From positions 91,896 through 155,895 of the forward strand of contig CASIBH010000006.1 in NCBI GenBank assembly GCA_949372805.1: 64,000 bases of DNA, in the 5' to 3' direction. How positions within the stretch are numbered: position 1 is the first letter of the stretch; every line of letters begins with the position of its first letter. The stretch comes from an uncultured Flavobacteriales bacterium. GTDB taxonomy: Bacteria; Bacteroidota; Bacteroidia; Flavobacteriales; BACL11. Positions 2,278 through 43,958 of this stretch are shown one piece after another. Position numbers and translations under genes: made by a program. The notes below the pieces were generated by a model. That model was not told the origin of the DNA, did not search any database, and saw only the letters and a program-made list of their open reading frames with translations.

Positions 2278-2286
2278 AAAATAACT

Positions 2287-2496: not shown

Positions 2497-2536
2497 AAAA
2501 GTTTTATTGATTTGCTAAAGATAGAATTAAATTTCT

Positions 2537-2575: not shown

Positions 2576-2597
2576 AATTAAAATTTAATAATTATTC

Positions 2598-2825: not shown

Positions 2826-2855
2826 AATAATTTAATAATTTGATTAATACTACAG

Positions 2856-2863
2856 CAAACTTA
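2856..2863 (-). promoter_or_regulatory. putative Bacteroidota -7 promoter box TAAGTTTG
   Basis: Exact TAnnTTTG on the minus strand, 30 nt upstream of the ATG at 2825. Confidence 0.45.
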
Positions 2864-2983
2864 TAGTATAAATGATCTTTATCTAATTTAAAGCTTAACT
2901 TATTTTAAAGTTAGGCTAAAAAAACACGTCTTAATTGTTTTTTCAAAAATTTGATTTAAACATATGATTATCAGTTATTTATA

Positions 2984-3024
2984 TTTTTTTTTCTGTTTTT
3001 TTTCTGGTTTTTCTCTGACTTTTT
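2984..3024 (+). repeat. four T-tracts with exact 12-bp spacing (degenerate T(5-9)CTG unit)
   Basis: T-runs start at 2984, 2996, 3008 and 3020 (tttttttttctg / ttttttttctgg / tttttctctgac / ttttta). They sit inside the 303-nt gap between the SDR gene and the 75-aa gene. Confidence 0.6.
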
Positions 3025-3128
3025 ACACATTATATTGTTCAAAATCTAAGAAGCATAATAAGTAGTTGTTAATCAGTATTTTAAGTATGTTTTTTTGTTT
3101 TTTTTAAGAGTTTTTTTGAGTATTTTAT

Positions 3129-31570: not shown

Positions 31571-32667
31571 AAATAGCAATACTTGGAACTAGGGGTATTC
31601 CTAATAATTATGGTGGATTTGAACAATGCGCTGAAATGCTTTCTGCAGGACTAGTTGAGAAAGGTCATAATGTTACAGTATACAATCCAGATTTTCATCC
31701 ATATCAAAATAATATCTATCGTGGAGTTAATATTAAACGAATATATAGTCCTCAAGATAAAATTGGCACATCTGCATCTAATTTTGTTTTTGATTATCTA
31801 TGTCTTAAGGATGCCATTAAAGAAGGTTATGACATCATCCTTGAGCTTGGTTTAATAACTGCTGCTCCATCAATAATTTTTTGTCGAAAAAAGAAGAATA
31901 TAATTGTTACAAATTTAGATGGCTTAGAATGGAAACGTGCAAAATGGAATCCAATTGTTAGATTTATAACAAAGCAACTTGAGCGTTTTGGTGTTTATTT
32001 TTCAAACTTTATTATTTCTGACAATATTGGAATTAAAGATTATGTCTTTGAACAGTATGGAAAAGAATCAGAATTTATTGCATATGGCGCTGATAAGATT
32101 AATACTCCAAATAAATTATTAATCAGCAAGTATATAAATGCTAATGAAGATTATTTTTTAACTATAGCTAGACTTGAACCTGAAAATAATATTGATTTAA
32201 TGTGTGATGCTTTTTTACTTTCAGATACTAAAAAACCTTACTATATAATAGGAAATGTCAACACTTCATACGGAAGCTCACTTTTAAATAAGTATAAAAA
32301 TACTTCAATAATTTTTTTAGGAGCAATCTTTAATAAAGATGAACTAGATTCTTTTAGATATTTTTCAAAATTATATATTCACGGTCATTCTGTGGGAGGC
32401 ACAAATCCTGCCCTTTTAGAAGCAATGACTGCCAAAGCTTTTATTATTTGTCATGATAATAAGTTTAATAAATCGGTAATTAGCTCAGGAGCTTTATATT
32501 TTAATAGCGTAGATTCATTAAAATTAATTTTTAATAATTCAGCTATATATGATAATAAAGAGGTATTTGTGAAACAAAATTTAGTAAGTATTGAGAAAAA
32601 CTACAGATGGAACATAGTCATTGATAAATATGAGGATTATTTTAAAAGAATTTTAAATAATAAATAA
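31567..32667 (+). CDS. glycosyltransferase (GT4-like with DUF1972-type N-terminus)
   Basis: N-terminus MKIAILGTRGIPNNYGGFEQCAE and a C-terminal GT-B block (HGHSVGGTNPALLEAM). It overlaps the upstream gene at an ATGA junction. Confidence 0.65.
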   Translation: MKIAILGTRGIPNNYGGFEQCAEMLSAGLVEKGHNVTVYNPDFHPYQNNIYRGVNIKRIYSPQDKIGTSASNFVFDYLCLKDAIKEGYDIILELGLITAAPSIIFCRKKKNIIVTNLDGLEWKRAKWNPIVRFITKQLERFGVYFSNFIISDNIGIKDYVFEQYGKESEFIAYGADKINTPNKLLISKYINANEDYFLTIARLEPENNIDLMCDAFLLSDTKKPYYIIGNVNTSYGSSLLNKYKNTSIIFLGAIFNKDELDSFRYFSKLYIHGHSVGGTNPALLEAMTAKAFIICHDNKFNKSVISSGALYFNSVDSLKLIFNNSAIYDNKEVFVKQNLVSIEKNYRWNIVIDKYEDYFKRILNNK

Positions 32668-33780
32668 GTCAGAAGATATTGCATCTGCAAATAGCATGCC
32701 TTTATTTGTCAGTTTTAAACTGTTATTCTCTAATATCGCATTTTCATTCTCTATCCATTTTCTTGAATTTTTCTTAAAATGAGAAGTAATCATTTTATCA
32801 AAATTATTCTCTAAATAATCTAAACTTACACCCCAAATTGTTCTTAGAGATGTCAGCGTGTATTCATTATATTTTTGATTTATGGACAATATTTCCTCAT
32901 CAAAATACTTTTCTCCACTATTAATAAATGTTATATATTTTAAATTATTAGAAATATTCCATCTTCTACTTTCTCCATTATAAGAATGAGCTGAGGGGCC
33001 AATTCCTAAATATATTTTATCTTCCCAATATGAAGTGTTGTGAAGAGCAAATTTATCTTTTCTACAGAAATTAGATATCTCATATTGTTTATATCCTATC
33101 TCTGAAGAAATTTCTTGAAGAATTTTAAAGTGATTCTCAGATTTACTTTCAGATAAAGGTTTAATTTTCTTCTTTTTAATTAGATAATTAAGTTTTGTAT
33201 TAGGTTCAACTGTCAAGGCGTATGCTGAGAAATGGTCTATTTGCAAGTCAAACATTTGTTGAAGATTTTTTTCCCAAATACTCTCTGTTTGATTTGGCAC
33301 TCCGTAGATTAAATCAATACTTATATTGTCAAAGCCACATTCCTTTGCAAGTTGAATGGAGTTTATTGCTTCTGCAGCATTATGACTCCTATTCATAAAA
33401 ATGAGATCTTTATTTTCGAAGGATTGAATTCCAATACTTAATCTATTAATTCCTGCAGTCCTTAATATATTTAATTTTTCTTTTTTAATATCATCAGGAT
33501 TAAACTCCATTGTTATCTCAGCAGATTTTTTTACTTCATATAAAGAATAGATTTTTTCTATTATACTTATTATGTGTTTCACATCAATTATTGAAGGAGT
33601 TCCTCCCCCAAAGTAGATACTATCAATTTTTTTTGTCTTTAAATAGCTTTTTCTTTGATCTAATTCTATAATCATTCCACTAACTAACTCTTCAACATTA
33701 TCTTTCTTAGTTGAAAAATGAAAATTACAATAATTGCACTTTTGTTTGCAGAAGGGTATGTGGATATATATTCCAGCCAA
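32653..33780 (-). CDS. hemW: radical-SAM HemN/HemW-family protein (haem chaperone / coproporphyrinogen oxidase-like)
   Basis: YIHIPFCKQKCNYCNF (CxxxCxxC) and GGGTPS motifs. Length is 375 aa. Confidence 0.85.
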   Translation of the reverse strand: MAGIYIHIPFCKQKCNYCNFHFSTKKDNVEELVSGMIIELDQRKSYLKTKKIDSIYFGGGTPSIIDVKHIISIIEKIYSLYEVKKSAEITMEFNPDDIKKEKLNILRTAGINRLSIGIQSFENKDLIFMNRSHNAAEAINSIQLAKECGFDNISIDLIYGVPNQTESIWEKNLQQMFDLQIDHFSAYALTVEPNTKLNYLIKKKKIKPLSESKSENHFKILQEISSEIGYKQYEISNFCRKDKFALHNTSYWEDKIYLGIGPSAHSYNGESRRWNISNNLKYITFINSGEKYFDEEILSINQKYNEYTLTSLRTIWGVSLDYLENNFDKMITSHFKKNSRKWIENENAILENNSLKLTNKGMLFADAISSDLFII

Positions 33781-33816: not shown

Positions 33817-34227
33817 TTATTCTATAAATCTAGCTAGATTCTCTTTTGTAGGAATTGAGCATGTATTTCTTTTACCAAAAAATCGATATCTATTTTTAGC
33901 AATAAAATCGTATTTAAAATCTAACACTTTTTTTGGAATAATTTTAAGTATAATAAAAGGCTTAAAAAATATACTTAATGAAGCGATTATTTGAATTGCA
34001 GCATCAGATTTTATTTTTATTTTATTATCAGATAATAGAATTATCGAATCAATTTTTTTTTGATTTAAATTAAATTTTTTAGCTAGCTCTTGACCTTTTT
34101 TTCCTGAAATAGGAGAAAATAAAAACTGTTCTTTTTTATCAAGTTTAATAATGAAATTTACAAATGTATTACACATATTGCACATGCCGTCAAAGAGTAT
34201 TATATCTTTATTTTTATTATGCATCAT
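33817..34227 (-). CDS. DCC-family (DUF393) putative thiol-disulfide oxidoreductase
   Basis: ILFDGMCNMCNTFV carries the D-x2-C-x2-C signature. Length is 136 aa. It starts 7 nt after the TonB receptor stop. Confidence 0.75.
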   Translation of the reverse strand: MMHNKNKDIILFDGMCNMCNTFVNFIIKLDKKEQFLFSPISGKKGQELAKKFNLNQKKIDSIILLSDNKIKIKSDAAIQIIASLSIFFKPFIILKIIPKKVLDFKYDFIAKNRYRFFGKRNTCSIPTKENLARFIE

Positions 34228-34234
34228 AGTATAG

Positions 34235-36655
34235 TTATAATCTAATTTCTATTGTAGTATAAATATTTCTATTTGGAGATGGTATAATTCCAGGTCCTGG
34301 ATATCCTGTTGCTCTTCGAGTAAAATACTTATTATCTAGAATATTGTTTATTCCAAATTCAAATTTAAGTTTTTTATATTTATAAGAGGCTGACAGGTCT
34401 AAGACCTCGTATGATGGTATTTGTCCAATAACTCCACTTAGGTTGCTCTCCACCGCATTTGAGGCGTCAGTAAATTGATCAGACAAGACTGTAAGCTGAA
34501 GGTTTGTTAAAATATTTTTATAACCTAATCTAACTCCAGATTTTAAATTTATTATAGGTATAAATTCAACTCTATTGCCAATTATACCATTCTTGTCAGA
34601 GTCTATATATTCTGAGTTAATAAATGATGTATTGATATAAAAAGTAAAGATATTATTTTCATCATTTGATATAAGCTTGTTGATGTTTATATCCACTAAT
34701 GTTTCAAGACCGTATATTAGAGCATCACCAACATTGCCTCTCTCGCTTTTTACGCTACCATCATCAAACTCTTTTTGAACAAAACCAATACGATTATTAT
34801 AAAACAAATTAAATACACTGATGTCATATGAAAAGATTTTCTTAAAATCTCCTCTTAAACCAAGATCAATAGTAAACCCTTTCTCGTCCTGAATATCTGG
34901 ACTAATAACAAAAGCAGGATTTATTATGCTAATATCTGCAAAAGTAACTGAACGATAGTTTTGTGAGATATTACCATAAATTTCTATTCCTTTTTTATAG
35001 CTTATTCCTGTTCCTAGTAGAACAAATGCACGATTATTATTATTATTATTATAAATGGTGCTATCAAGTATTACATTATCTGCTGCATCAAGATTTATTT
35101 TTTTGTAAAACCCTATGCTTTCTGTCTTAATATGTTCCAGCCTAAAACCAGGAGTGATCGAAAGATATTGATTAATCTTAAAAATATTTTCTCCAAATAA
35201 CGCAATGTTAAGGTTTGGATATCTATAATTTGATTGATTATTATAGTGAGGGTAATTTAATCGATCAAAATTAAAATCAGGCTCAATATTATCAGATCCG
35301 GGCCCCTGCTCACTATAATTATCTGATTTATAAAATTTCGTTCCAATCAGAAATGCTGATTGATGATTATTTAAAAGATATTTTTTTAGGTATTTTGCTT
35401 CAAAACCAAAATTATTAAAATTACTTTTAATTAAATCTCTTTCCTCAAATGAATCTATCTGACTAACTCTGTTTGTTCTAAATCCAAGAGCATATCTATT
35501 TGCTTTTAGGCCAAATAAATTAAGTGATAATGAGTTGTTTTTCGATGGTGTATAAAAAACCTGGAAATTGTATAGCAGCCACCCAACCTTAAACCAATTT
35601 CTTTCTCTATTGCTTTGTAATGGGTTTTGATTAAACATCACGTCAGATAATCCACCAGCTTGCTGTGCTAAATAATCTAGAAAAGTTATTTCTGTAGATA
35701 ATTTTATTTTGCTATTAAATTCATATCCTATGTGAGTATATATATTTGAGGATTCAAATTTAGAATTAGGCCTGAAGCCATCACCTTTCTTGTAATTAAT
35801 GAATGAGATATAGCTAAACTTATTTACTCTTCCACTTAAGCTTGTGTAATTAGTATAAAGTTTATTACTTCCAAATGTGTTACGACTAATAATCTCGGCA
35901 CTTCTTTCAAGGTTTGGTTTTTTCATTATAAAATTAACTAGCCCTCCAAATTGAGTTCCATACTGTAATGACGCTGCTCCTCTGACAATTTGTATTTCCT
36001 CTAATCCTTCAGATGCTGGGGCGTAATAGCTCTCAGGATAGCCTAAGACATCAGCACTGATATCATATCCATTTTGTCTAGTGTTAAAATTAGCTGTTCT
36101 GTTAGGGTCTAAACCTCTTCCTCCAATGTTAAGTTGTAATCCAGCATCATCATTCTGATAAATATTTAATCCCGAAATCTGACTATAAATTTGTCGTGCA
36201 TTATTTGAGGCGAGATTAGCCATAGACTGATTTACTAATATTACTTCATTTTTTTTTCCTGCATATATTGAGGTTCCTTCGATATCATTGAGTCTTTTTA
36301 TTTCAAATATCTTTTGTTTTCTCTGAGTAATTTCTACTTCCATTAATTCTTTTGAAAGAGGCAGTAACTCTGTATTAATTATTGTATCACCATTAATAGA
36401 TATAGATTGTTCGTAAACATTATAATTATATGCGAAAAAAATTAAGCTTAGTTTGTTTTTTGTGGTGGTAAATTCAAAAAATCCTTTAGAATTTGTCTGA
36501 GCTAATTTTCCAAAACTCTTTTCAAAAATTTCTACATCTTTAATAGGGTTTTTAGAGTCTAATGATATTATTTTTCCTGAAATAATATTTTGTCCATTTA
36601 AATTACTAAAACTGAGTAAGAAAAAAAATAGAAGTATGTCTTTTAATGATCTCAT
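34235..36655 (-). CDS. TonB-dependent outer-membrane receptor with N-terminal carboxypeptidase-regulatory-like domain
   Basis: The start is set at M8 of the ORF-track model, whose ATG overlaps the HTTM TGA as ATGA (36652-36655). The signal ends ...SNLNG|Q. Plug-domain blocks are present (IQIVRGAASLQYGTQFGGLVNF), followed by a long beta-barrel with alternating pattern. Confidence 0.85.
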   Translation of the reverse strand: MRSLKDILLFFFLLSFSNLNGQNIISGKIISLDSKNPIKDVEIFEKSFGKLAQTNSKGFFEFTTTKNKLSLIFFAYNYNVYEQSISINGDTIINTELLPLSKELMEVEITQRKQKIFEIKRLNDIEGTSIYAGKKNEVILVNQSMANLASNNARQIYSQISGLNIYQNDDAGLQLNIGGRGLDPNRTANFNTRQNGYDISADVLGYPESYYAPASEGLEEIQIVRGAASLQYGTQFGGLVNFIMKKPNLERSAEIISRNTFGSNKLYTNYTSLSGRVNKFSYISFINYKKGDGFRPNSKFESSNIYTHIGYEFNSKIKLSTEITFLDYLAQQAGGLSDVMFNQNPLQSNRERNWFKVGWLLYNFQVFYTPSKNNSLSLNLFGLKANRYALGFRTNRVSQIDSFEERDLIKSNFNNFGFEAKYLKKYLLNNHQSAFLIGTKFYKSDNYSEQGPGSDNIEPDFNFDRLNYPHYNNQSNYRYPNLNIALFGENIFKINQYLSITPGFRLEHIKTESIGFYKKINLDAADNVILDSTIYNNNNNNRAFVLLGTGISYKKGIEIYGNISQNYRSVTFADISIINPAFVISPDIQDEKGFTIDLGLRGDFKKIFSYDISVFNLFYNNRIGFVQKEFDDGSVKSERGNVGDALIYGLETLVDININKLISNDENNIFTFYINTSFINSEYIDSDKNGIIGNRVEFIPIINLKSGVRLGYKNILTNLQLTVLSDQFTDASNAVESNLSGVIGQIPSYEVLDLSASYKYKKLKFEFGINNILDNKYFTRRATGYPGPGIIPSPNRNIYTTIEIRL

Positions 36656-38001
36656 TTTTTTAATGGAAGAATCCATTTTTTATTTTCAAAAGAATCTTTG
36701 ATTTCCAATAGATCAATTTCAGGATCAATATACCTTTGATTTCTTCGGCCATTTAATGAAACATAACTATCTGCATAAACTGCAATGTCATCATATCCTT
36801 GATTTTTAAAATGTTTGCCAAGAAAATGAGCATATTCTAAAATAAAATCTGGTTGGAAGCTCATTTGTTTTTCCTGATAGCTTGTTAAGAAATCCTCATT
36901 TTGAACATAGAAAAATTGATTTTTATCTTTATCTACAATTTTAAATGTTGTATATCCAAGTTTCTCCATTAGCATGACCCTCCAAGAAAATCTATAGCCC
37001 TGTTCGTGCCACATAATATTACCATTATAACTCAGATGTCTTAAAGGTATTGTTAGTTGTAGAATAAAGAAAATAGTTAGCACCCAAATAATCTTTTTAT
37101 TACTATTAAATTTAACGTTTTGAATATTAATGTGTGATAATTTTTTTCTAATTGGATCTATAATTATTTTTAAAATATTAATAATCCTCTTATGAAATTT
37201 TGCATCAAAAAATATTAAGGCACTGATGATCATAATGTAAGGAAATACACCAATTGGAAATAGAACTCTTGTAAAAACATGAAAAAATACTACCAAAAGA
37301 AATGCAAATGTTCTTGTTCTTTTGTAAAGTAATAAAAATGGGATTAGTAGATCATAAAGCATTCCTCCCCAACTCATTGCGAAATGCACCCAATTCTCTT
37401 GCATAAACGTCTCGCCTATTATTGGAAGATCGTATTTTGATGGAAGCCAAATTTTTAGTGGTAGTGCTTGCAAAAGCCAATCAGAATTTATCTTAGCTAA
37501 TCCAGCATAAATATATACTATGCAAAGCATTAGTTTAATACTATCAATTGTCCATCTGGGCACAGATATTGACTTTGTTTTACTTATGAAATTGTCTAAT
37601 GAGAAAGATGAGTTTAGTGGAAGAAAAATTAATAGAAAGCTTAATACACAGATGAAATAATAATGATTTAAATAAACTGTCTTTTCTAGCAGTTCAATAT
37701 ATGTAAAGCTTAAAAAAAACGTAATTATTGCAGGTCTATATTTAAACCCAAGAGTAATAAAACAAGCAGATAAAGCACAGAGGATAAAAAGAATATATAC
37801 ACCTTCTCCAATAGAATTAATCCATTCAAATCCGTAGTATTTAAAATGAAATGAGGGTTCAATATAGATTTTTTCAATCCATCCTTTATTCCAAAATCGT
37901 ACGATACTAAATAGCATCATTAGACCAAAACCTATCCTAAATACTGCAAGAGGAGAGGAGTCCGTATAAGAATTTATATATTGTTTTACTCTTGTTGTCA
38001 T
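36652..38001 (-). CDS. HTTM-domain polytopic membrane protein (vitamin K-dependent gamma-carboxylase homologue)
   Basis: The start is set at the second Met (38001), because the first lies inside the upstream terminator stem. N-terminal block PLAVFRIGFGLMMLFSIVRF is present, with at least eight hydrophobic helices. The C-terminal soluble block is GYRFSWRVMLM...VSLNGRRNQRYIDPEIDLL. Confidence 0.75.
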   Translation of the reverse strand: MTTRVKQYINSYTDSSPLAVFRIGFGLMMLFSIVRFWNKGWIEKIYIEPSFHFKYYGFEWINSIGEGVYILFILCALSACFITLGFKYRPAIITFFLSFTYIELLEKTVYLNHYYFICVLSFLLIFLPLNSSFSLDNFISKTKSISVPRWTIDSIKLMLCIVYIYAGLAKINSDWLLQALPLKIWLPSKYDLPIIGETFMQENWVHFAMSWGGMLYDLLIPFLLLYKRTRTFAFLLVVFFHVFTRVLFPIGVFPYIMIISALIFFDAKFHKRIINILKIIIDPIRKKLSHINIQNVKFNSNKKIIWVLTIFFILQLTIPLRHLSYNGNIMWHEQGYRFSWRVMLMEKLGYTTFKIVDKDKNQFFYVQNEDFLTSYQEKQMSFQPDFILEYAHFLGKHFKNQGYDDIAVYADSYVSLNGRRNQRYIDPEIDLLEIKDSFENKKWILPLKK

Positions 38002-38035
38002 AAAAAAAAGATTCTCCAAATATATGGAGAATCTT
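38002..38035 (-). terminator. rho-independent terminator between the imelysin-like gene and the HTTM gene
   Basis: Perfect 11-bp stem (38008-38018 aagattctcca paired with 38025-38035 tggagaatctt) and a 6-nt loop. On the minus strand the T-run that follows runs straight into the HTTM ATG. Confidence 0.75.
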
Positions 38036-38059
38036 CGTTGATTTTTACTCTAAAAAATA

Positions 38060-39166
38060 TCAGTCTCCATCCGCATCAATATAATCAACATCAATATTTA
38101 GAGATCCTATCATATCGATTTTAAGAAGAGGGACAGCAGCCTGTACTTTGTCATACGTTACAAGTAATTGGTAGTTATTATTGTTTATTTGGTTCATTAA
38201 ATTATCATCCAAGTCATTTATAGCTGTTTCTGCCGAATTAAACGTTGTGATAATAACATTACTTAAAGTATCCCCATCTTCTAAAGCGTTAAGGTGGTTT
38301 AAGTAGTTTTTTAGAGAATTCCCTTCAGAGGTATTGTCAAAATAAATACCACTAAAAAACTTCTTTATCGCCGTTAATGCCTCCAGAGCTAATATTTTTG
38401 ACGTATTATTGTTCAGGTTATGGTAATATGCTTCGATATTTTGAGGAAGGGGAGATCCTGAAAATACTCCTGCAGGTATGCCTATTTTATTAGCTCTAAA
38501 ACCTTTTTCATAATAGAAAATAAAGTCATTAGTAAGTTTGTTTAGGCTTGAAGTAGCTGTGTTTTCAGTTGAATTAATGAAAGGTTCTCTATTGCTATTC
38601 CATTCATTAATAATATTATTAGTATTTGTAAGCATATCTTGTACTAGATTGTTTAGATAGTTTAAATGCTTTGAGCTTTCAGGCCCATTATAAACTTGAA
38701 TAGGGTCAGTAAAGCCATTAAGTAAATAATCCAATGTTGGAAAACCTTGAGCTGAGTAGTGATTAGAACTGTTTAAGTCATAATCCTCTGATGAAATATT
38801 AAGGCTGATTCTTGTTACATTACATGGATATGCATTCATTTTTCTTCTAAAATCAATCTCTTCTGCCATCCCAATGTCAAACATCTCAACATTTTGCCAT
38901 GATAAATACGCATTTAACCAATCTAATCTTAATTGTTCAAGATTATTTTGATTGGCAAAATTTGTAAAATTATTTGTTGAAACTTCAAGTGCTTCAAGTT
39001 TCTGATTTAAATTGTTATATGATGGTAAAATTATATTATCAGCAATATTCTGTAGAAGACTTGCTCTATTGAACCCATCATTATAATCATTTAAAGATTC
39101 TTCTCCGCTTCCACAGGAAAAAAGCATAGTAGCTACTGTGAAAAGAGTTATTACTTTTTTTATCAT
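38060..39166 (-). CDS. imelysin-like (peptidase M75 fold) lipoprotein, catalytic HxxE absent
   Basis: Lipobox MLFSC. The pattern LRLDWLNAYLSWQNVEMFDIG matches the family. QGFPTLDYLLNG occupies the position where the family normally has G-x-H-x2-E. Length is 368 aa. Confidence 0.6.
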   Translation of the reverse strand: MIKKVITLFTVATMLFSCGSGEESLNDYNDGFNRASLLQNIADNIILPSYNNLNQKLEALEVSTNNFTNFANQNNLEQLRLDWLNAYLSWQNVEMFDIGMAEEIDFRRKMNAYPCNVTRISLNISSEDYDLNSSNHYSAQGFPTLDYLLNGFTDPIQVYNGPESSKHLNYLNNLVQDMLTNTNNIINEWNSNREPFINSTENTATSSLNKLTNDFIFYYEKGFRANKIGIPAGVFSGSPLPQNIEAYYHNLNNNTSKILALEALTAIKKFFSGIYFDNTSEGNSLKNYLNHLNALEDGDTLSNVIITTFNSAETAINDLDDNLMNQINNNNYQLLVTYDKVQAAVPLLKIDMIGSLNIDVDYIDADGD

Positions 39167-39182
39167 ATTTTATTTTAATTTT

Positions 39183-39220
39183 AAAAACTCAGTGGAAAAT
39201 AAATTCCACTGAGTTTTTTT
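39183..39220 (-). terminator. rho-independent (bidirectional-looking) terminator after the first lipoprotein gene
   Basis: Perfect 11-bp stem (39187-39197 actcagtggaa paired with 39204-39214 ttccactgagt). It is flanked by an A-run on one side and a T-run on the other. Confidence 0.8.
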
Positions 39221-39239
39221 AATTTAATTAATCTATAAA

Positions 39240-40403
39240 TTACAGACCAAATGCAACATCAATATCATCTGCCATTTGTGTTAATGTAGCAGCATCAACA
39301 TCCCAAAGCCCATTACCAGCCATTAATGTATCAAGCATTGCATTAACTTGAGCATTTGTGAAAATGTAGTTACCATCACCATCTAAAGCAAATTGAAGAC
39401 TTAGTATAAATCCATATCCCTCAGAAACAGCATGGAAAAAATCTGCCATATCAGGAGTTGAATTTGATAGGTCAGCAGCACCATCCCTTAAGTAATCAGA
39501 AGCTTTAACTCCAAGAATTTTAGAAACATGTTCTTTAATAATTGCAGCTTGAGCATCTCTAGTTTCATAATCCATATTTACAATTGCAGCTCTTCCTAAC
39601 TTGAAAGCATCGTAAACAGTGTTCATGTCAACATCTCCAGAAGTATTAACCTTACCTGCATATTTGTTTAATAATACAGACCCATTGCCAGAGTAAGTAG
39701 GGTTTTCTTTGTCTAATTCTCTTCCAAATAGATATCCAAAACCTTCGTCCCAGTAATGCTCCATGTCAGTATACTCACCAGCTAATAAACCTGCAGGGTC
39801 ATTTGCACCTGAGTTTAGTTTTGATTCGCTTAGATATCCGTTTACTATTTGATCAACACATAACCCACCTATTAATCCTTTTGTAAAACCTTGAACAATT
39901 TCTAATCCTTTAGAATTAACATAGACTTCTCGTCCACCAGCACCTTGGTGATATCCTGCAACACCTGCGGAAGCTAAATCCCCGTTATTCCATGCTGGGA
40001 AAACAACATTTGCTGCCTCTGCTATCATTGCATCAAACATTGGTTTTACAGTTGATGAACCATAAGCAGCTGTTTTGTTTCCTAACTTTTTACCTGAAGC
40101 ATCAAGATCGTAATCAGCTCCGTTGAAAGTAACTACACCAAAACCTGTACCGTCATTAAACATTCCAAGAAGTTCTGTTTCAGTTTTTGAGGGGTCTTTT
40201 AACGCATTATAAAGTTCTCCAGCCATCAATAGTCTTGCAGTTTGCCCAGAATAACTGACTGTCGTTGCTCCCTCTCTTAAGAATTCATAAGTATCTGGAG
40301 AATTAGTGGTTGGTAAAGGTTGTGGATCTGTATCTGTTCCGCAAGAGGATAATATTATTAATGACGATAATAGGATCCCTTTAATAAGATTTCTTTTTTT
40401 CAT
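39240..40403 (-). CDS. acidic lipoprotein, probably DUF4856 family, first gene of the TonB/HTTM cluster
   Basis: Lipobox ILSSCG, 387 aa, Asp/Glu/Gly/Ala-rich. By eye it is less AT-rich than its neighbours. It is flanked by an exact -7 box and a strong terminator. The family call is from memory of flavobacterial gene neighbourhoods. Confidence 0.5.
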   Translation of the reverse strand: MKKRNLIKGILLSSLIILSSCGTDTDPQPLPTTNSPDTYEFLREGATTVSYSGQTARLLMAGELYNALKDPSKTETELLGMFNDGTGFGVVTFNGADYDLDASGKKLGNKTAAYGSSTVKPMFDAMIAEAANVVFPAWNNGDLASAGVAGYHQGAGGREVYVNSKGLEIVQGFTKGLIGGLCVDQIVNGYLSESKLNSGANDPAGLLAGEYTDMEHYWDEGFGYLFGRELDKENPTYSGNGSVLLNKYAGKVNTSGDVDMNTVYDAFKLGRAAIVNMDYETRDAQAAIIKEHVSKILGVKASDYLRDGAADLSNSTPDMADFFHAVSEGYGFILSLQFALDGDGNYIFTNAQVNAMLDTLMAGNGLWDVDAATLTQMADDIDVAFGL

Positions 40404-40427: not shown

Positions 40428-40435
40428 CAAATATA
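40428..40435 (-). promoter_or_regulatory. putative -7 promoter box TATATTTG of the uptake cluster
   Basis: Exact TAnnTTTG on the minus strand, 24 nt upstream of the ATG at 40403. Confidence 0.5.
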
Positions 40436-40459
40436 AAAGATTATTTCTTATTTAAAATA

Positions 40460-40492
40460 AATCTTAATAAGCATAATAAACTTATTAAGATT
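40460..40492. promoter_or_regulatory. perfect 12-bp inverted repeat AATCTTAATAAG-N9-CTTATTAAGATT (candidate operator)
   Basis: The arms at 40460-40471 and 40481-40492 are exact reverse complements. The left arm sits where a -33 element for the 40428 box would lie. Confidence 0.45.
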
Positions 40493-40705: not shown

Positions 40706-40737
40706 TAATTTAGAAGATAATTCACTTTTTTTTTGTC

Positions 40738-40745
40738 TAAATTTG
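40738..40745 (+). promoter_or_regulatory. putative -7 promoter box TAAATTTG
   Basis: Exact TAnnTTTG, 8 nt upstream of the ATG at 40754. It lies inside the TTG-extended ORF-track model, which argues for the ATG start. Confidence 0.45.
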
Positions 40746-40753
40746 TAATAATT

Positions 40754-41197
40754 ATGTATTACACTATTTTAATATCTCATATTTTCCTAAGTTTTGCAGT
40801 TTCTTTTGTTGCTTTTTTTATAGTTGTGCGTTCTTTTCTTGGAGTTTATAAAAAAATTAAATTTTCTGATTTTTATGATTTTTTTATTCCAAAATTTGCA
40901 GTCATTCTTTTATATGTTGAATTAATATTAGGGCTTTTATTATACGCTTTACATATTAGTAAGCTTGAAAATTTTATTAGTCAGTCAAATGCAGATGCAT
41001 ATTTTTCATATAGATTTTGGGCTATAGAGCATACTATATTAATGCTTTTTGCTATCATTTTTGGTCATCTGGGCTTGCTATACACAAAAAATATTAAGTC
41101 TGTAGTAGAGAGATTTAAAAAGAATTTAACTTATTTTGGATTATCATTTATTCTTATCACAGTTTCATTACTAATGAATATGTTAAAAAATGCATAA
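40754..41197 (+). CDS. four-helix membrane protein with intramembrane histidines, unknown function
   Basis: 147 aa. His residues lie in helix 1 (ILISHIF), helix 2 (YALHI) and helix 3 (AIEHTIL and FGHLG). Its stop overlaps the response regulator start (ATGCATAA). Confidence 0.55.
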   Translation: MYYTILISHIFLSFAVSFVAFFIVVRSFLGVYKKIKFSDFYDFFIPKFAVILLYVELILGLLLYALHISKLENFISQSNADAYFSYRFWAIEHTILMLFAIIFGHLGLLYTKNIKSVVERFKKNLTYFGLSFILITVSLLMNMLKNA

Positions 41198-41876
41198 TAA
41201 AAATAAAATACTTTTAGTTGAGGACGAATTAGAGTTAGCTAAGTCCGTAGTTAAATATTTAAAAGAAAGTAATTATTTGTGTACTCATGTAGAGAAATTA
41301 AAAAATGCAAGAGAATTATTGAAGAAAAATAATTTTCATGCAGTTTTATTAGACCTAGGCTTACCAGATGGCGACGGTCTTTCACTGATTAAGGAAATTA
41401 AGAATAAAGATAAAACAACAGGTGTGATTATAATTTCAGCCAAAGATGCCTTATCAAATAAAATTCAAGGACTAGATTTAGGTGCGGATGATTATTTGAC
41501 AAAACCATTTTTTATGCCAGAATTAAATGCTAGAATTAATTCTTTGATAAGAAGATTAAATTTTGAAGGAGATAATGAGATAATAATTGGTGATATAAAG
41601 ATTATACCTGATCAGATGTTAACTTTAGTAAATGAACAAAGAGTTGATTTAACAAATACAGAGTTTAATCTATTATTATATTTTATTACTAATAAAAATA
41701 GAGTTTTAAGTAAAACTAATTTAGGAGAGTATATGTCCTCTAATTATCATGACTACAGTTTTTCTGATGATTTAGTTTACACACATATTAAGAATTTAAA
41801 GAAAAAACTGGAAAAATCTGGATGTTCAGATTATATTAAGAATGTTTATGGTGTTGGTTATAAATTCAGTAATTAA
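41190..41876 (+). CDS. OmpR/PhoB-type response regulator
   Basis: Receiver domain (ILLVEDE and VLLDLGLPDGDG) plus a winged-helix output domain (VYGVGYKF). Confidence 0.9.
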   Translation: MHNKNKILLVEDELELAKSVVKYLKESNYLCTHVEKLKNARELLKKNNFHAVLLDLGLPDGDGLSLIKEIKNKDKTTGVIIISAKDALSNKIQGLDLGADDYLTKPFFMPELNARINSLIRRLNFEGDNEIIIGDIKIIPDQMLTLVNEQRVDLTNTEFNLLLYFITNKNRVLSKTNLGEYMSSNYHDYSFSDDLVYTHIKNLKKKLEKSGCSDYIKNVYGVGYKFSN

Positions 41877-41878
41877 AA

Positions 41879-43114
41879 ATGAAGCTATCTACTAAATCTG
41901 GTCTAAGTTTTATTTCTGCTAGTGCGATATTCTTTTTCTTAGGCAGTATCTTAATGTATTTTTCTGTTAGAGTGATTCTTGCCGAAGATTTAAAAGATAG
42001 ATTATTAGACATGCAAAGTTCTTTTATGATGGATCTTTCTTATGCCAATGATATTACTATCATGAATGGTGCAAAAACATTTGTTTTTAAAGCACCAAGA
42101 TTAGAACCAACCCTTTTTTCTGATACTGTTTTAATAGAATCTGGCAGATATAATCTTTTTAGAAAGATTACTTTCTCTCAAGTATTTAATCACAAAATAT
42201 ATAAAATAGAAATCCTACAATCACAATCTCAGACTGATCTACTTGTATGGAGAATTGTTATTTTAAATGTTGGTTTAGCAATGCTTTTTTTCTTAATTAT
42301 TTTTTTTGTAAATCATCTGACTGTTAAACGAACTTTAAAAGTTTTTTATAATACAATAGATAAATTAGAAAATTTTGATGTTGGTAAGTCTCCTTCCTTG
42401 TCTCTGGAGGACGCTGATGTTGAAGAGATTAAAAAACTAAATGATGTTTTTAATGAAATGTCTAAAAAAATTAAAAGTGATTTTGATGAGCAGAAAGAAT
42501 ATACAGAAAATGTTTCTCACGAGCTACAAACACCTCTTGCCATAATTAGTTCAAAAGCAGAAGAACTTCTTCAATCTGAGCGTTTAAATAAGCTTGAAAT
42601 GGAACATATTGGAATTATAATGAAAACTATTAATCGTCTTGCTAAAATCAATCAATCATTAATTTTCTTAACTAAAATTGATAATCGTTTTTATACAGAA
42701 GAAGAATCATTTAAACTTTCTGATGTAATTCATGAAAAAATTAATTTTTTTACTGGTGTAATTGAGCGACAGAAGATAAATGTTAGCTTAGATATAAGTG
42801 ATGATGTATCATTAAAAATGAATAAGTATTTATCAGATACATTATTTTTAAATTTAATTAAAAACTCTATTATTCATAATATTAAAGGAGGTTTCTTAGA
42901 GATAAAATTACTAGATAATATTTTGACTCTAAAGAACAGTGGACAAAATATCAGACATAATAGTGTTGATATATTCAAGAGATTTTATAGAGATCAAGAA
43001 AATAAAAAGAGCTTAGGAATTGGCCTGTCAATTGTAAAAAGAATTTGTGATTTATATGACTTTAAGATCCATTATTCATTTGAGGATTGTCATGTTTTTA
43101 AAATAGAAATATAA
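41879..43114 (+). CDS. sensor histidine kinase
   Basis: Two transmembrane segments flank a periplasmic domain of about 95 aa. The H-box is NVSHELQTPLAII, with a C-terminal ATPase domain (LGIGLSIVKR). Confidence 0.85.
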   Translation: MKLSTKSGLSFISASAIFFFLGSILMYFSVRVILAEDLKDRLLDMQSSFMMDLSYANDITIMNGAKTFVFKAPRLEPTLFSDTVLIESGRYNLFRKITFSQVFNHKIYKIEILQSQSQTDLLVWRIVILNVGLAMLFFLIIFFVNHLTVKRTLKVFYNTIDKLENFDVGKSPSLSLEDADVEEIKKLNDVFNEMSKKIKSDFDEQKEYTENVSHELQTPLAIISSKAEELLQSERLNKLEMEHIGIIMKTINRLAKINQSLIFLTKIDNRFYTEEESFKLSDVIHEKINFFTGVIERQKINVSLDISDDVSLKMNKYLSDTLFLNLIKNSIIHNIKGGFLEIKLLDNILTLKNSGQNIRHNSVDIFKRFYRDQENKKSLGIGLSIVKRICDLYDFKIHYSFEDCHVFKIEI

Positions 43115-43115
43115 A

Positions 43116-43958
43116 ATGGGAAAAGATTTTTTTAGTGGTTTGTCTGATGAAGAAAAAGAAATTATTGTAAATAAAGGAACCGAGAGACCATTCTCTGGAG
43201 AATATAATGATTATTCTTTAGAAGGTGTTTTTTCTTGTAGAGCTTGTGGTAGCTTTTTATATGAATCTGATTCAAAATTTGACTCTGGATGTGGATGGCC
43301 TTCTTTTGATGATGAGATTACTGATGCAATTGTAAGGTACGAAGATAACTCACTGTTGAGAAAAAGAGTAGAAATCTGTTGTGCAAAATGCGATGGCCAT
43401 TTAGGTCATGTATTTCATGGGGAAAAAGCAACTATGAAAGATACACGACATTGTGTTAATTCCTTAAGTATAAAATTTATAAATAAAAATAGAATAGAAA
43501 AAGTAACACTTGGAGCAGGATGTTTTTGGAAAGTTGAGAAGTTATTTTCTGAAATTAAAGGAGTTTATAACGTTAAATCAGGTTATATGGGCGGAGATAT
43601 TCCCAACCCAACATATGAAGCAGTTTGCTCTGGAGAAACTAATCATATTGAGGTGGTAGAAATTTATTTTGACCCAAGTATTCTTACCTTTTTAGAGCTT
43701 TTAGTTTTTTTCTGGTCAAATCACAACCCCTCATCTGTTGATAGTCAGAATGGTGACAATGGAATTCAATATCGCTCTGTTATTTTTTGTCATTCAAAAA
43801 TTCAGTTAGAACAAGCTTTAAAGTCTAAAGATGAATATCAAAAAAATATAGATAAAAAAATAGTTACATCAATACTCGAGGCAGATGTCTTTTATAAGGC
43901 AGAAGAATATCACCAGGACTATTTGAATAAGAATAATTTAGGTAGTTGTAGTGTTTAA
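43116..43958 (+). CDS. bifunctional methionine sulfoxide reductase, MsrB-MsrA fusion
   Basis: The MsrB half has two CxxC zinc pairs (CRAC and CAKC) and the catalytic RHCVNS. The MsrA half has GAGCFWKVE. No signal peptide is present. It starts 1 nt after the kinase stop codon. Confidence 0.9.
   Translation: MGKDFFSGLSDEEKEIIVNKGTERPFSGEYNDYSLEGVFSCRACGSFLYESDSKFDSGCGWPSFDDEITDAIVRYEDNSLLRKRVEICCAKCDGHLGHVFHGEKATMKDTRHCVNSLSIKFINKNRIEKVTLGAGCFWKVEKLFSEIKGVYNVKSGYMGGDIPNPTYEAVCSGETNHIEVVEIYFDPSILTFLELLVFFWSNHNPSSVDSQNGDNGIQYRSVIFCHSKIQLEQALKSKDEYQKNIDKKIVTSILEADVFYKAEEYHQDYLNKNNLGSCSV

What the first reader, a model, noticed from the sequence alone, without database searches (positions are those of the whole stretch)
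33817..40403. TonB-dependent uptake cluster built around a vitamin-K-carboxylase-like HTTM enzyme and a DCC thiol oxidoreductase
Seen in the sequence: five genes run head to tail on the minus strand. They are an acidic lipoprotein (39240-40403), an imelysin-like lipoprotein (38060-39166), a 449-aa polytopic HTTM protein (36652-38001), a TonB-dependent receptor and a 136-aa DCC-family protein. The receptor ATG overlaps the HTTM stop as ATGA, which suggests translational coupling. The DCC gene starts 7 nt after the receptor stop and carries the D-x2-C-x2-C motif (DGMCNMC). A HemW-like radical-SAM gene follows 36 nt later. Established knowledge: the HTTM domain is the bacterial homologue of the membrane core of animal vitamin K-dependent gamma-glutamyl carboxylase. 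The C-terminal block here (GYRFSWRVMLM ... VSLNGRRNQRYIDPEIDLL) is the region I recognise as shared with the animal enzyme. DCC/DUF393 proteins are predicted thiol-disulfide oxidoreductases. Imelysin-like proteins (EfeO/IrpA relatives) are linked to iron uptake. Flavobacteria respire with menaquinone, which is vitamin K2. Inference: HTTM plus DCC could be a quinone-dependent modifying enzyme and its thiol reductase, analogous to carboxylase plus VKOR. It would modify an exported partner, and the two co-encoded acidic lipoproteins are the obvious candidates. The modified protein would act as a metal-capturing shuttle for the TonB receptor. To my knowledge no biochemical activity has been assigned to a bacterial HTTM protein in this context.
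Basis: partly seen in the sequence, partly recalled or inferred. Interest (0 to 1): 0.8.

Follow-up and report, generated by a model that had tools for sequence, protein, structure and literature searches.

The report
Iron-uptake operon with carboxylase-like enzyme
A marine flavobacterium carries a widely conserved, iron-regulated uptake operon whose fixed parts include a bacterial relative of the human vitamin K-dependent (blood-clotting) carboxylase with its catalytic residues intact, and nobody knows what that enzyme does there; the neighbouring DCC thiol-oxidoreductase gene is not a regular part of the operon.

Summary
Five head-to-tail minus-strand genes sit at the stated coordinates and spacings: a DUF4856 lipoprotein, an imelysin-like lipoprotein, a VKGC-like HTTM enzyme, a TonB-dependent receptor and a DCC1-like protein. 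hemW follows.

- **Conserved unit.** DUF4856-imelysin-HTTM-receptor recurs in all 80 related genome loci. 73 are complete and in the same order, 6 are cut by contig ends, and 1 is rearranged. The loci span Flavobacteriaceae, Cytophagales, Saprospiraceae, Chitinophagales and Balneolaceae.
- **Iron control.** 68 of 75 upstream regions carry a site within 3 mismatches of the Riemerella anatipestifer Fur box. In that species the same four genes rise on iron restriction and in a fur mutant.
- **The enzyme.** The HTTM protein models onto human GGCX (TM 0.70-0.85). It keeps the equivalents of K218, W223, D263, N159, H160 and F299. It lacks clamp B and the C-terminal domain.
- **Imelysin link.** VKGC-type HTTM genes also abut imelysin genes in a second operon type (imelysin, dihaem oxidoreductase, imelysin, HTTM).
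- **DCC.** A DCC gene lies within 10 kb in only 2 of 80 loci. In the window's clade it travels with hemW.

Best reading: a Fur-repressed iron uptake system whose quinol-dependent enzyme acts on the imelysin-type partner. The chemistry is untested.

The parts
40450..40468 (-). Fur-box-like site ATTAAGATTTATTTTAAAT, 65 nt upstream of the DUF4856 ATG
   Evidence: It has 3 mismatches to the R. anatipestifer Fur box ATTTAGAATTATTCTAAAT (PMC5609570). Sites with 3 or fewer mismatches occur in 68 of 75 orthologous upstream regions. The controls give 0.5 of 75 in shuffles and 41 of 356 in other intergenic regions.
40460..40492 (.). Perfect 12-bp inverted repeat AATCTTAATAAG-N9-CTTATTAAGATT that overlaps the Fur-box-like site; a candidate operator
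   Evidence: It occurs once in the window. It is conserved in the three closest related loci, L089-L091. Sequence read.
40428..40435 (-). TATATTTG, a match to the Bacteroidota -7 promoter element TAnnTTTG, about 25 nt before the ATG
   Evidence: Read directly from the sequence. It is conserved in L089 and L090. The motif itself is from established knowledge of Bacteroidota promoters.
39240..40403 (-). DUF4856 lipoprotein (387 aa, lipobox Cys21, mature pI 4.26), first gene of the unit
   Evidence: - Pfam PF16148, E 2e-90.
- Invariant motifs TxMEHxWDExxGY (212-224) and HxxSExxGF (324-332).
- AF2 model with pLDDT 89.3 has no PDB fold match.
39183..39218 (-). 15-bp hairpin followed by a T-run, between the DUF4856 and imelysin genes
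   Evidence: It may be an attenuator or an RNA-stability element. Not tested.
38060..39166 (-). IPPA-type imelysin-like lipoprotein (368 aa, lipobox Cys18, mature pI 4.29) ending in an invariant DxDGD-COOH tail
   Evidence: - Pfam PF09375, E 1.6e-23.
- A profile of the family hits IPPA (3pf0) at E 2.3e-24 along the whole length, including the terminal DGD.
- D364, D366, G367 and D368 are invariant.
38007..38036 (-). 12-bp hairpin plus T7 immediately before the HTTM ATG
   Evidence: It is probably lineage-specific, because the median imelysin-to-HTTM ORF gap in orthologous loci is 21 nt.
36652..38001 (-). VKGC-like inner-membrane enzyme (449 aa): HTTM transmembrane domain plus the clamp-A part of the lumenal domain
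   Evidence: - Pfam HTTM E 1.3e-75 and VKGC_lumenal_dom E 3.7e-58.
- Aligns to human GGCX 52-505 at E 1.6e-37.
- N112, H113, K170, W175, H241 and F253 are invariant, and D217 is nearly invariant.
- AF2 pLDDT 94.1. Foldseek finds only GGCX, with query-normalised TM 0.70-0.85.
34235..36655 (-). TonB-dependent receptor (806 aa) with an N-terminal CarboxypepD_reg domain; its start overlaps the HTTM stop
   Evidence: - Pfam.
- Only sub-threshold NCBIfam matches, the best being FecA at 105 bits against a cut-off of 1100.
- ORF overlap with HTTM is conserved in 65 of 78 loci.
33817..34227 (-). DCC1-like protein (136 aa, DGMCNMC). It is probably co-transcribed here but is a lineage-specific neighbour, not a member of the conserved unit
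   Evidence: - Pfam PF04134, E 8.6e-27.
- Present within 10 kb in 2 of 80 orthologous loci.
- Kept next to hemW in the window's clade.
- No signal peptide, pI 9.9.
32653..33780 (-). HemW-type radical-SAM haem chaperone; a downstream neighbour that is not part of the unit
   Evidence: TIGR00539, E 4.5e-87. It is absent from all 80 orthologous loci.

Best explanation
The conserved unit is a four-gene iron-acquisition operon under Fur control: DUF4856 lipoprotein, IPPA-type imelysin-like lipoprotein, VKGC-like HTTM enzyme and TonB-dependent receptor.

Shown here:
- The gene set, order and overlaps are fixed across several orders of Bacteroidota and in Balneolaceae.
- A Fur-box-like operator sits upstream.
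- The enzyme has the GGCX fold and keeps the residues that deprotonate vitamin K hydroquinone (K218, W223, D263), hold the substrate carboxylate (N159, H160) and stack CO2 (F299).

Inferred:
- When iron is scarce, Fur releases the promoter.
- The two acidic lipoproteins are exported to the outer membrane or cell surface. There they capture an iron species and hand it to the receptor.
- The inner-membrane enzyme uses menaquinol and O2 at the periplasmic face. It acts on the imelysin-type partner, most likely while that protein is still tethered to the inner membrane.
- The most probable chemistry is carboxylation of an acidic residue, giving a malonate-like metal ligand. The invariant, disordered C-terminal DxDGD tail of the imelysin is my leading candidate site.
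- The enzyme lacks clamp B and the C-terminal domain, which form the propeptide exosite of the animal enzyme. Substrate recognition must therefore differ.

The DCC and hemW genes downstream are neighbours specific to this lineage.
For: **Gene identities:**

**Conservation:** 73 of 80 loci are complete and in the same order, 6 are cut by contig ends, and 1 is rearranged.

**Fur and iron:**
- Fur-box-like sites with 3 or fewer mismatches occur in 68 of 75 upstream regions, against 0.5 of 75 in shuffles and 41 of 356 control intergenic regions.
- R. anatipestifer RAYM_09779-09794 (receptor, VKGC, imelysin, hypothetical) are all up under iron restriction and in the fur mutant (PMC5609570).
- Ferritin or haem-binding-domain genes sit next to the cluster in 9 and 11 loci.

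**Location of the lipoproteins:** Imelysin-like lipoproteins and a FecA-like receptor are abundant in Tenacibaculum maritimum outer-membrane vesicles (PMC10288586).

**Enzyme:**
- Alignment to human GGCX at E 1.6e-37.
- Catalytic columns invariant. The residue roles come from PMC12647623.
- The model matches only GGCX, with TM 0.70-0.85.
- It keeps the 374-418 region that epoxidase-only viral homologues lack.

**Link to imelysin across two operon types:**
- DUF4856-M75-HTTM in L084.
- M75-DHOR-M75-HTTM in L086 and L092.
- HTTM next to M75-DHOR-M75 in L085.
- An M75 tail directly before HTTM in L093.

**Candidate site:** The DGD tail is invariant and was disordered in the IPPA crystal.
Against: - No experiment shows any modification, and no Gla-type or propeptide-type signal was found.
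- The DGD tail also occurs in IPPA-family imelysins whose operon has no HTTM gene (3pf0 and second clusters in L006, L027, L079). It is therefore not specific to HTTM-linked proteins.
- The residue equivalent to Y395, which anchors the Glu dipeptide in GGCX, is Tyr in the window protein but is not conserved in the family.
- Clamp B and the C-terminal domain are missing.
- The transported species is unknown. The receptor reaches no NCBIfam cut-off.
- In Gramella forsetii an imelysin-like protein and its neighbour rose on laminarin (PMC4069401). I did not check whether those genes belong to this cluster.
- Fur binding here rests on sequence similarity to a box defined in another family of Flavobacteriales.
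Confidence: 0.45

Rival explanations
1. HTTM and DCC form a carboxylase-plus-reductase pair analogous to GGCX plus VKOR. DCC recycles the quinone, and the pair modifies the two lipoproteins.
For: - DCC starts 7 nt after the receptor stop, so it is probably co-transcribed here.
- HTTM-DCC1 fusion proteins exist in other bacteria (bioRxiv 10.64898/2026.08.19.745780).
- A DCC gene sits next to a VKGC-type HTTM cluster or gene in independent lineages, with DCC proteins only 31-35% identical: L030, L057 and L095.
Against: - No DCC gene lies within 10 kb in 78 of 80 orthologous loci.
- In the window's clade the adjacency is part of a longer syntenic block with hemW, a glycosyltransferase and other genes.
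- In L030 the DCC gene is followed by hemA, hemC, hemD, hemB and hemL. The shared neighbour may therefore be haem metabolism rather than HTTM.
- DCC has no signal peptide and is basic, whereas the GGCX-type active site is extracytoplasmic.
- No DCC protein has been shown to reduce a quinone or an epoxide, to my knowledge.
Confidence: 0.1
2. The HTTM enzyme is active as a quinol- and O2-dependent epoxidase or strong-base generator, but it does not modify a protein. It would act on the imported cargo or on iron redox state in the periplasm, taking a role like that of the dihaem oxidoreductase or EfeB in other imelysin systems.
For: - The catalytic set for hydroquinone deprotonation is invariant.
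- The propeptide clamp is incomplete.
- MloH, the one bacterial homologue with a known reaction, works on a small-molecule intermediate and not on a protein.
- Viral homologues are argued to be epoxidases coupled to other chemistry (PMC13486548).
- In the Bacteroidota four-gene unit, HTTM takes the place of a redox enzyme next to the imelysin.
Against: - In L086 and L092 the HTTM gene sits alongside the dihaem oxidoreductase rather than replacing it.
- The enzyme keeps the carboxylate-binding N159 and H160, the CO2-stacking F299 and the 374-418 region that epoxidase-only homologues have lost.
- GGCX chemistry has no known route for passing electrons to metal ions.
Confidence: 0.2
3. The HTTM protein is mainly the inner-membrane transport or docking component of the system. 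It would be the counterpart of EfeU/Ftr1, moving iron or holding the lipoproteins, and its enzymatic ancestry would be incidental.
For: - It is the only inner-membrane protein in the unit, and no permease or ABC transporter is encoded nearby.
- Xu et al. note that EfeU is missing from the outer-membrane type of imelysin operon (PMC3143127).
- HTTM stands at the end of M75-DHOR-M75 operons.
Against: - Strict conservation of every GGCX catalytic residue over 40 sequences down to 33% identity is what an enzyme would show, not a channel.
- The predicted fold matches no transporter.
Confidence: 0.12
4. The cluster takes up something other than iron, for example another metal or an organic nutrient, and the Fur-box likeness is a by-product of AT-rich promoters.
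For: - The receptor reaches no curated subfamily cut-off.
- The Gramella forsetii imelysin-like protein rose on laminarin.
- 41 of 356 control intergenic regions also have a site with 3 or fewer mismatches.
Against: - The enrichment is 91% of operon upstream regions against 12% of control intergenic regions and under 1% of shuffles.
- Direct iron and fur dependence of the orthologous genes was measured in R. anatipestifer.
- The neighbours include ferritin, haem-binding and HmuY-receptor genes.
- The imelysin superfamily is tied to iron in several species.
Confidence: 0.05

Closest known systems
[quoted passage not shown]
   Same: - Homologous over GGCX residues 52-505 (E 1.6e-37).
- Same fold (query-normalised TM 0.70-0.85).
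- Equivalents of N159, H160, K218, W223, D263, H287 and F299 are conserved.
- Keeps loop LL9 and the clamp-A lumenal domain (Pfam PF22777).
   Different: - 449 aa against 758 aa. It lacks clamp B (the jelly-roll) and the C-terminal domain, so it has no complete propeptide cleft.
- The LL9 motif is GxRFSWR instead of LYGYSWD, which makes it more basic.
- No Gla-domain substrates are known.
- It is encoded in an iron-regulated uptake operon.
Riemerella anatipestifer RAYM_09779-RAYM_09794 (PMC5609570)
   Same: Four consecutive genes are annotated as TonB-dependent receptor, vitamin K-dependent gamma-carboxylase, imelysin lipoprotein and hypothetical protein. This is the same order as here. All four are induced by iron restriction and in a fur mutant.
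   Different: It is known only as rows in a transcriptome table, with no functional study of the enzyme. Orthology is inferred from the annotation and gene order, because I could not fetch that sequence. No DCC gene is listed among the regulated neighbours.
Imelysin operons of the PA4370-PA4373 / VC1264-VC1266 type, and EfeUOB (PMC3143127)
   Same: They are Fur-regulated, contain lipoprotein imelysin-like proteins including the IPPA/PA4372 family (GxxxxE type, DGD tail), and are implicated in iron uptake.
   Different: Their partner enzyme is a dihaem oxidoreductase (DUF1111/DHOR) or EfeB. Here the partner is a VKGC-like enzyme, with a DUF4856 protein and a dedicated TonB-dependent receptor. 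Hybrid operons (M75-DHOR-M75-HTTM) exist in other bacteria and are not described in that paper.
MloH, the VKGC orthologue of Streptomyces malonomycin biosynthesis (cited)
   Same: It is a bacterial VKGC homologue with a demonstrated carboxylation reaction on an aspartyl residue. This shows that the chemistry works in bacteria and on Asp.
   Different: It acts on a polyketide-nonribosomal peptide intermediate inside a biosynthetic gene cluster. No such genes are present here.
HTTM-DCC1 fusion proteins with a DUF5819 partner (bioRxiv 10.64898/2026.08.19.745780)
   Different: In those proteins HTTM and DCC are one polypeptide, there is no PF22777 lumenal domain, and the context is not iron uptake. 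Here the two are separate genes whose adjacency is not conserved.
HmuY-HmuR and other lipoprotein-plus-receptor uptake pairs of Bacteroidota
   Same: A surface lipoprotein is encoded next to a Fur-regulated TonB-dependent receptor. An HmuY-receptor pair sits beside this cluster in L089.
   Different: Those systems contain no inner-membrane enzyme, their ligand (haem) is known, and their lipoproteins belong to other families.

Membership tests
Vitamin K-dependent carboxylase (VKGC/GGCX) family | HTTM transmembrane domain | tested here: met
   PF05090, E 1.3e-75, covering residues 12-267 and nearly the whole profile.
Vitamin K-dependent carboxylase (VKGC/GGCX) family | Lumenal domain with loop LL9 (human 374-418), required for carboxylation | tested here: met
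   PF22777, E 3.7e-58, residues 302-448. GYRFSWRVMLME aligns with human 394-405. Epoxidase-only viral homologues lack this region.
Vitamin K-dependent carboxylase (VKGC/GGCX) family | Catalytic base K218 with W223 and D263 | tested here: met
   These map to K170, W175 and D217. K170 and W175 are invariant and D217 is at least 90% conserved in 40 sequences. Residue roles from PMC12647623.
Vitamin K-dependent carboxylase (VKGC/GGCX) family | Substrate-carboxylate and CO2 site (N159, H160, F299, Y395) | tested here: inconclusive
   N112, H113 and F253 are invariant. Y336 is present in the window protein, but that column has no majority residue in the family.
Vitamin K-dependent carboxylase (VKGC/GGCX) family | Propeptide exosite formed by clamp A plus clamp B, and the C-terminal domain | tested here: not met
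   The protein ends at the equivalent of human residue about 505. Target-normalised TM is only 0.54-0.59 because about 250 residues of GGCX have no counterpart.
Vitamin K-dependent carboxylase (VKGC/GGCX) family | Overall fold | tested here: met
   AF2 pLDDT 94.1, pTM 0.92. All 16 significant Foldseek matches are human GGCX, with E 1.6e-21 to 8e-13 and query-normalised TM 0.70-0.85.
Vitamin K-dependent carboxylase (VKGC/GGCX) family | Quinol- and O2-dependent epoxidation coupled to carboxylation of a peptide | not testable with these tools
   Needs enzyme assays and mass spectrometry.
DCC1-like thiol-disulfide oxidoreductase (PF04134) | Profile match and N-terminal D-x2-C-x2-C motif | tested here: met
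   E 8.6e-27 over residues 10-119. DGMCNMC at residues 13-19.
   A DCC gene lies within 10 kb in 2 of 80 orthologous loci, by both phmmer and a motif regex. Genome-wide co-occurrence was not testable.
Imelysin-like superfamily, IPPA family | Peptidase_M75 profile, lipoprotein signal, similarity to IPPA (3pf0) along the whole length | tested here: met
   PF09375, E 1.6e-23. A family profile hits 3pf0 at E 2.3e-24 up to the terminal DGD. The lipobox Cys is invariant.
Imelysin-like superfamily (for the DUF4856 protein) | Two four-helix-bundle fold or profile similarity to M75 | tested here: not met
   Foldseek on a pLDDT 89 model finds no PDB match at E below 1. hhalign gives only a 35-column local match at 82% probability.
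TonB-dependent receptor | Plug plus 22-strand barrel domains | tested here: met
   PF07715, PF00593 and PF13715.
Named siderophore, ferric-citrate or haem receptor equivalogs | Score above the NCBIfam cut-off | tested here: not met
   Best is FecA at 105.6 bits against a cut-off of 1100. TonB-siderophore scores 92.7 against 223.5.
Fur regulon | Fur operator in the promoter, and iron- and Fur-dependent expression | tested here: inconclusive
   An operator-like site is present and strongly enriched in orthologues. Expression data exist only for R. anatipestifer. Binding in this organism is untested.

The most novel reading that the evidence does not exclude
The VKGC-like enzyme carboxylates Asp or Glu residues of the co-encoded imelysin-type lipoprotein, for instance in its invariant, flexible C-terminal DxDGD tail, or of the DUF4856 protein. 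That would turn them into malonate-type ligands that grip iron for hand-over to the receptor. It would be the first vitamin K-dependent protein carboxylation in bacteria, it would imply a menaquinone epoxide cycle in the bacterial envelope, and it would give imelysin-like proteins a biochemical function.
Probability: 0.2. Interest if true: 0.9.

Novelty: new variant of a known kind. Interest (0 to 1): 0.6.

Why it matters
[quoted passage not shown] The only assigned reaction, MloH, belongs to antibiotic biosynthesis.

Here one subfamily turns out to be a fixed, translationally coupled part of a Fur-type iron-uptake operon. That operon is found in many genera of Bacteroidota, including fish and poultry pathogens (Tenacibaculum, Riemerella) and abundant marine flavobacteria.

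This gives the enzyme a physiological setting, a short list of candidate substrates, and genetically tractable hosts in which to test it. It also bears on how imelysin-like proteins work in iron uptake, which is still unexplained. If the enzyme turns over quinol to an epoxide, it bears on whether bacteria run a vitamin K epoxide cycle at all.

For annotation, it shows that DUF4856 belongs to an iron-uptake system.

Tried and rejected
1. **DCC as a conserved partner: rejected.** It is present in 2 of 80 loci by phmmer and by a D-x2-C-x2-C regex. In the window's clade it is part of general synteny with hemW.
2. **DUF4856 as a divergent imelysin: not supported.** I suspected this from its EHxWDE and HxxSE motifs. 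Foldseek finds no PDB match, and hhalign finds only a 35-column local similarity.
3. **The divergent 154-aa membrane protein, response regulator and histidine kinase (40733-43114) as the cluster's regulators: rejected.** They are conserved only in the close clade and absent beside the cluster elsewhere. In L089 they are separated from it by an HmuY-receptor pair.
4. **Other conserved neighbours: none found.** Clustering of flanking ORFs gave only housekeeping synteny, apart from occasional ferritin and haem-binding-domain genes.
5. **An Asp-rich peptide as a recurrent HTTM substrate: not recurrent.** I saw one upstream of a distant HTTM gene in L088. None was found in 73 related metagenome loci.
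6. **The DGD tail as a marker of HTTM-linked imelysins: rejected.** It is general to the IPPA family.
7. **Literature.** No paper in the library holds 'DUF4856', or 'HTTM' together with 'imelysin'. Only the Riemerella Fur paper links gamma-carboxylase, TonB-dependent and iron. A Leptospira search gave nothing usable.
8. **Sigma-70 promoter scan: uninformative.** It found fewer sites than in shuffles, as expected for Bacteroidota.

Full report
**What is there.** The window is AT-rich (26-34% G+C). It comes from an uncultured marine member of Flavobacteriales: an identical HTTM protein is on record as 'HTTM domain-containing protein [Flavobacteriales bacterium]' and in Tara and JGI assemblies. 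The minus strand carries the following genes in order.
- A DUF4856 lipoprotein (39240-40403).
- An imelysin-like lipoprotein (38060-39166).
- A 449-aa protein with the HTTM domain and the VKGC lumenal domain (36652-38001).
- A TonB-dependent receptor with an N-terminal CarboxypepD_reg domain (34235-36655).
- A DCC1-like protein (33817-34227).
- HemW (32653-33780).

The receptor ATG overlaps the HTTM stop as ATGA, the DCC gene starts 7 nt after the receptor stop, and hemW follows 36 nt later. An alternative in-frame receptor ATG lies at 36676. The 36655 start matches the conserved M[KR]LKDF start of orthologues, and the two ORFs overlap in 65 of 78 related loci. Both mature lipoproteins are acidic (pI 4.3). 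In each, the lipobox Cys is followed by an acidic stretch. By established knowledge of the Bacteroidota lipoprotein export signal, that fits surface exposure. In Tenacibaculum maritimum, imelysin-like lipoproteins and a FecA-like receptor are abundant in outer-membrane vesicles (PMC10288586).

**Which genes belong together.** A scan of one genome per species with a profile of the HTTM protein returned 80 loci at 56-65% identity. Most are Flavobacteriaceae. Others are Ekhidna, Flammeovirgaceae and Cyclobacteriaceae, Saprospiraceae, Chitinophagales, and Gracilimonas and Rhodohalobacter. I called ORFs and searched them with the window's proteins.
- DUF4856-imelysin-HTTM-receptor is present in the same order and on the same strand in 73 loci.
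- Six loci are cut by contig ends, with nothing missing where sequence exists.
- One locus (L060) has the receptor before the HTTM gene.
- A DCC gene lies within 10 kb in only two loci. In L030 it sits directly after the receptor. In L057 it is on the opposite strand 500 bp downstream. A motif regex gave the same two.
- hemW was never present.
- Clustering of all flanking ORFs found no further conserved partner. It gave housekeeping synteny, plus a haem-binding-domain protein in 11 loci and ferritin in 9.

In the window's own clade (HTTM 73-87% identical) the whole neighbourhood is syntenic. It runs from the histidine kinase and response regulator through the cluster to DCC, hemW, a glycosyltransferase, a rhodanese-thioredoxin protein and PorP. 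The DCC adjacency is therefore one feature of clade-level gene order. In L030 the DCC gene is followed by hemA, hemC, hemD, hemB and hemL. The three DCC proteins are only 31-35% identical. A haem-related context fits the DCC gene at least as well as an HTTM-related one.

**Iron.** In Riemerella anatipestifer four consecutive genes are annotated as TonB-dependent receptor, vitamin K-dependent gamma-carboxylase, imelysin lipoprotein and hypothetical protein. All four are induced by iron restriction and raised in a fur mutant. That paper also derives a Fur box, ATTTAGAATTATTCTAAAT, supported by gel shifts on other promoters (PMC5609570). I searched the 250 nt upstream of the DUF4856 gene in the window and 74 related loci for that 19-mer.
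- 68 of 75 regions have a site with three or fewer mismatches, typically 90-120 or about 30 nt before the start codon.
- The controls give 0.5 of 75 in shuffled sequences and 41 of 356 in other intergenic regions of the same loci.

The window's site (40450-40468, three mismatches) overlaps a perfect 12-bp inverted repeat (40460-40492). That repeat is conserved in the three closest loci. It lies just upstream of TATATTTG, a match to the Bacteroidota -7 promoter element. Fur control is therefore well supported by comparison, but it is not tested in this organism.

**The enzyme.** The protein aligns with human GGCX residues 52-505 (E 1.6e-37). Recent cryo-EM work assigns these roles (PMC12647623).
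- K218 is the base that deprotonates vitamin K hydroquinone.
- W223 and D263 position K218.
- N159, H160 and Y395 hold the substrate carboxylate.
- F299 stacks CO2.

The equivalents here are K170, W175, D217, N112, H113, Y336 and F253. In an alignment of 40 family members down to 33% identity, N112, H113, K170, W175, H241 and F253 are invariant and D217 is nearly so. The Y336 column is not conserved. An AlphaFold2 model (pLDDT 94.1, pTM 0.92) matches only human GGCX structures in the PDB. Its query-normalised TM is 0.70-0.85 and its target-normalised TM is 0.54-0.59. The bacterial protein has the transmembrane domain, the cap and clamp A, but lacks clamp B and the C-terminal domain. Unlike the epoxidase-only homologues of giant viruses, it keeps the 374-418 region needed for carboxylation. 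It is thus a trimmed but catalytically complete-looking carboxylase homologue without the animal propeptide cleft. Its LL9 loop reads GxRFSWR where the human enzyme has LYGYSWD. That would suit an acidic substrate, but this is inference.

**The link to imelysin.** The family is large: 1,676 clusters at 50% identity with E at or below 1e-30. I looked up the genomic setting of nine more distant members. Five of them, all at 39-44% identity, sit beside an imelysin gene.
- One lies in DUF4856-M75-HTTM (L084).
- Two lie at the end of M75-dihaem oxidoreductase-M75-HTTM operons, with gaps of 2-3 nt (L086, L092).
- One lies beside M75-DHOR-M75 (L085).
- One follows a truncated gene that ends in an imelysin tail (L093).

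Three members at 34-38% identity and 73 soil-type relatives have other contexts. One further member (P0122, 50%) was not looked up. The association with IPPA-type imelysin-like proteins therefore crosses two operon architectures. This is the strongest pointer to the enzyme's partner.

The imelysin here belongs to the IPPA family (profile hit to 3pf0, E 2.3e-24). It ends in an invariant DxDGD-COOH. The last six residues of IPPA were disordered in the crystal (PMC3143127). The tail is general to the family and not peculiar to HTTM-linked members. It is a candidate site, not evidence.

**DUF4856.** A confident model (pLDDT 89.3) has no PDB fold match. Profile comparison with the imelysin family gives only a short local similarity. 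Its invariant EHxWDE and HxxSE motifs look like a metal or ligand site. That is inference.

**How it most likely works.** Shown: the gene set, its conservation, the Fur-type operator, the fold and the catalytic residues. Inferred: Fur derepression under iron shortage, export of the two lipoproteins to the outer membrane where they serve the receptor, and action of the inner-membrane enzyme on the imelysin-type protein with menaquinol and O2. The most probable chemistry is carboxylation of an acidic residue. MloH shows that a bacterial homologue can carboxylate aspartyl.

I give the whole picture 0.45. The iron-uptake-operon part alone I would put near 0.85, and the protein-carboxylation step near 0.2-0.25. 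The rivals are as follows.
- An epoxidase or redox role without protein modification (0.2).
- A mainly transport or docking role (0.12).
- A substrate other than iron (0.05).

**Comparison and novelty.** The parts are known families, and the operon's iron response appears as table rows in one paper. In the literature I could search, nobody has discussed why a carboxylase homologue is built into this operon. DUF4856 has no paper at all. I file the system as a new variant of imelysin-type, TonB-dependent iron uptake. The enzyme itself fails one defining feature of the animal carboxylase, the complete propeptide clamp. It should therefore be called VKGC-like rather than a gamma-glutamyl carboxylase.

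**Limits.**
- The contexts of distant homologues are a sample of nine.
- Genome-wide co-occurrence of DCC or VKOR could not be tested.
- No complex prediction was available.
- Orthology with the Riemerella genes rests on annotation and gene order.

Noticed in passing
L088:1-144 (Logan SRR29063590_96523), directly upstream of HTTM homologue P0186: A called gene, truncated by the contig start, ends ...DDDWDDDDDWRRRRHDRDDDDDWDDDDDWDDDDDWRRHRHDDDDDWD. Its stop overlaps the HTTM start (TGATG). This is an Asp-rich repeat peptide translationally coupled to a VKGC-like enzyme, and possibly its substrate.
   Followed up: partly
window 38060-38086 (C-terminus of the imelysin); also L084-L086, L092, L093, L006, L027, L079 and PDB 3pf0: IPPA-family imelysin-like proteins all end in xDGD-COOH (here VDYIDADGD). 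The tail is invariant across 20-47% identical proteins and was disordered in the IPPA crystal. The first (ICMP-type) imelysin of M75-DHOR-M75 operons lacks it. Its function is unknown.
   Followed up: partly
L095:1174-1647 and 1648-3075; L143:2570-3250: In a soil metagenome contig a DCC gene abuts the start of a VKGC-type HTTM gene that has no imelysin context. A second locus has a DCC-like motif (YDGECGFC) on the opposite strand beside the HTTM start. This is sporadic HTTM-DCC adjacency in an unrelated branch.
   Followed up: partly
L030:7063-12884: In the single-cell genome AG-349-C04 the DCC gene directly after the receptor is followed by hemA, hemC, hemD, hemB and hemL. With the DCC-hemW pair in the window, this hints that this DCC subfamily travels with haem genes.
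   Followed up: partly
window 39183-39218 and 38007-38036: Strong hairpins followed by T-runs lie on the coding strand, between the DUF4856 and imelysin genes and immediately before the HTTM ATG. They may grade expression (lipoproteins above enzyme and receptor). The second is probably lineage-specific, since the usual gap is about 21 nt.
   Followed up: no
L089:1976-5178: In the closest sequenced relative, an HmuY lipoprotein and a second TonB-dependent receptor are inserted between the two-component genes and the cluster. Together they form a small iron/haem uptake island.
   Followed up: no
L057:7031-8828: The receptor is followed by a PepSY_TM protein, a family that (from memory) includes ferric reductases. 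Next come the DCC gene on the opposite strand and a DUF3050/haem-oxygenase-like protein.
   Followed up: no
Proteins P0207 and P0245: Some VKGC-type HTTM proteins carry a C-terminal TPR array in place of the missing clamp B and C-terminal domain. This could be an alternative peptide-binding module.
   Followed up: no
window 45230-47674 (minus strand): An 814-aa ORF has no Pfam match at E 1e-5. Relatives (L090, L091) have a gene of similar length, also without a Pfam hit, in the same position.
   Followed up: no
window 40733-43958: Transcribed divergently from the cluster are a 154-aa five-helix membrane protein with no Pfam match, an OmpR-type response regulator, a histidine kinase and a fused MsrB-MsrA. 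The block is conserved only in the close clade. In L090 and L091 the last gene carries only the MsrB (SelR) domain.
   Followed up: partly
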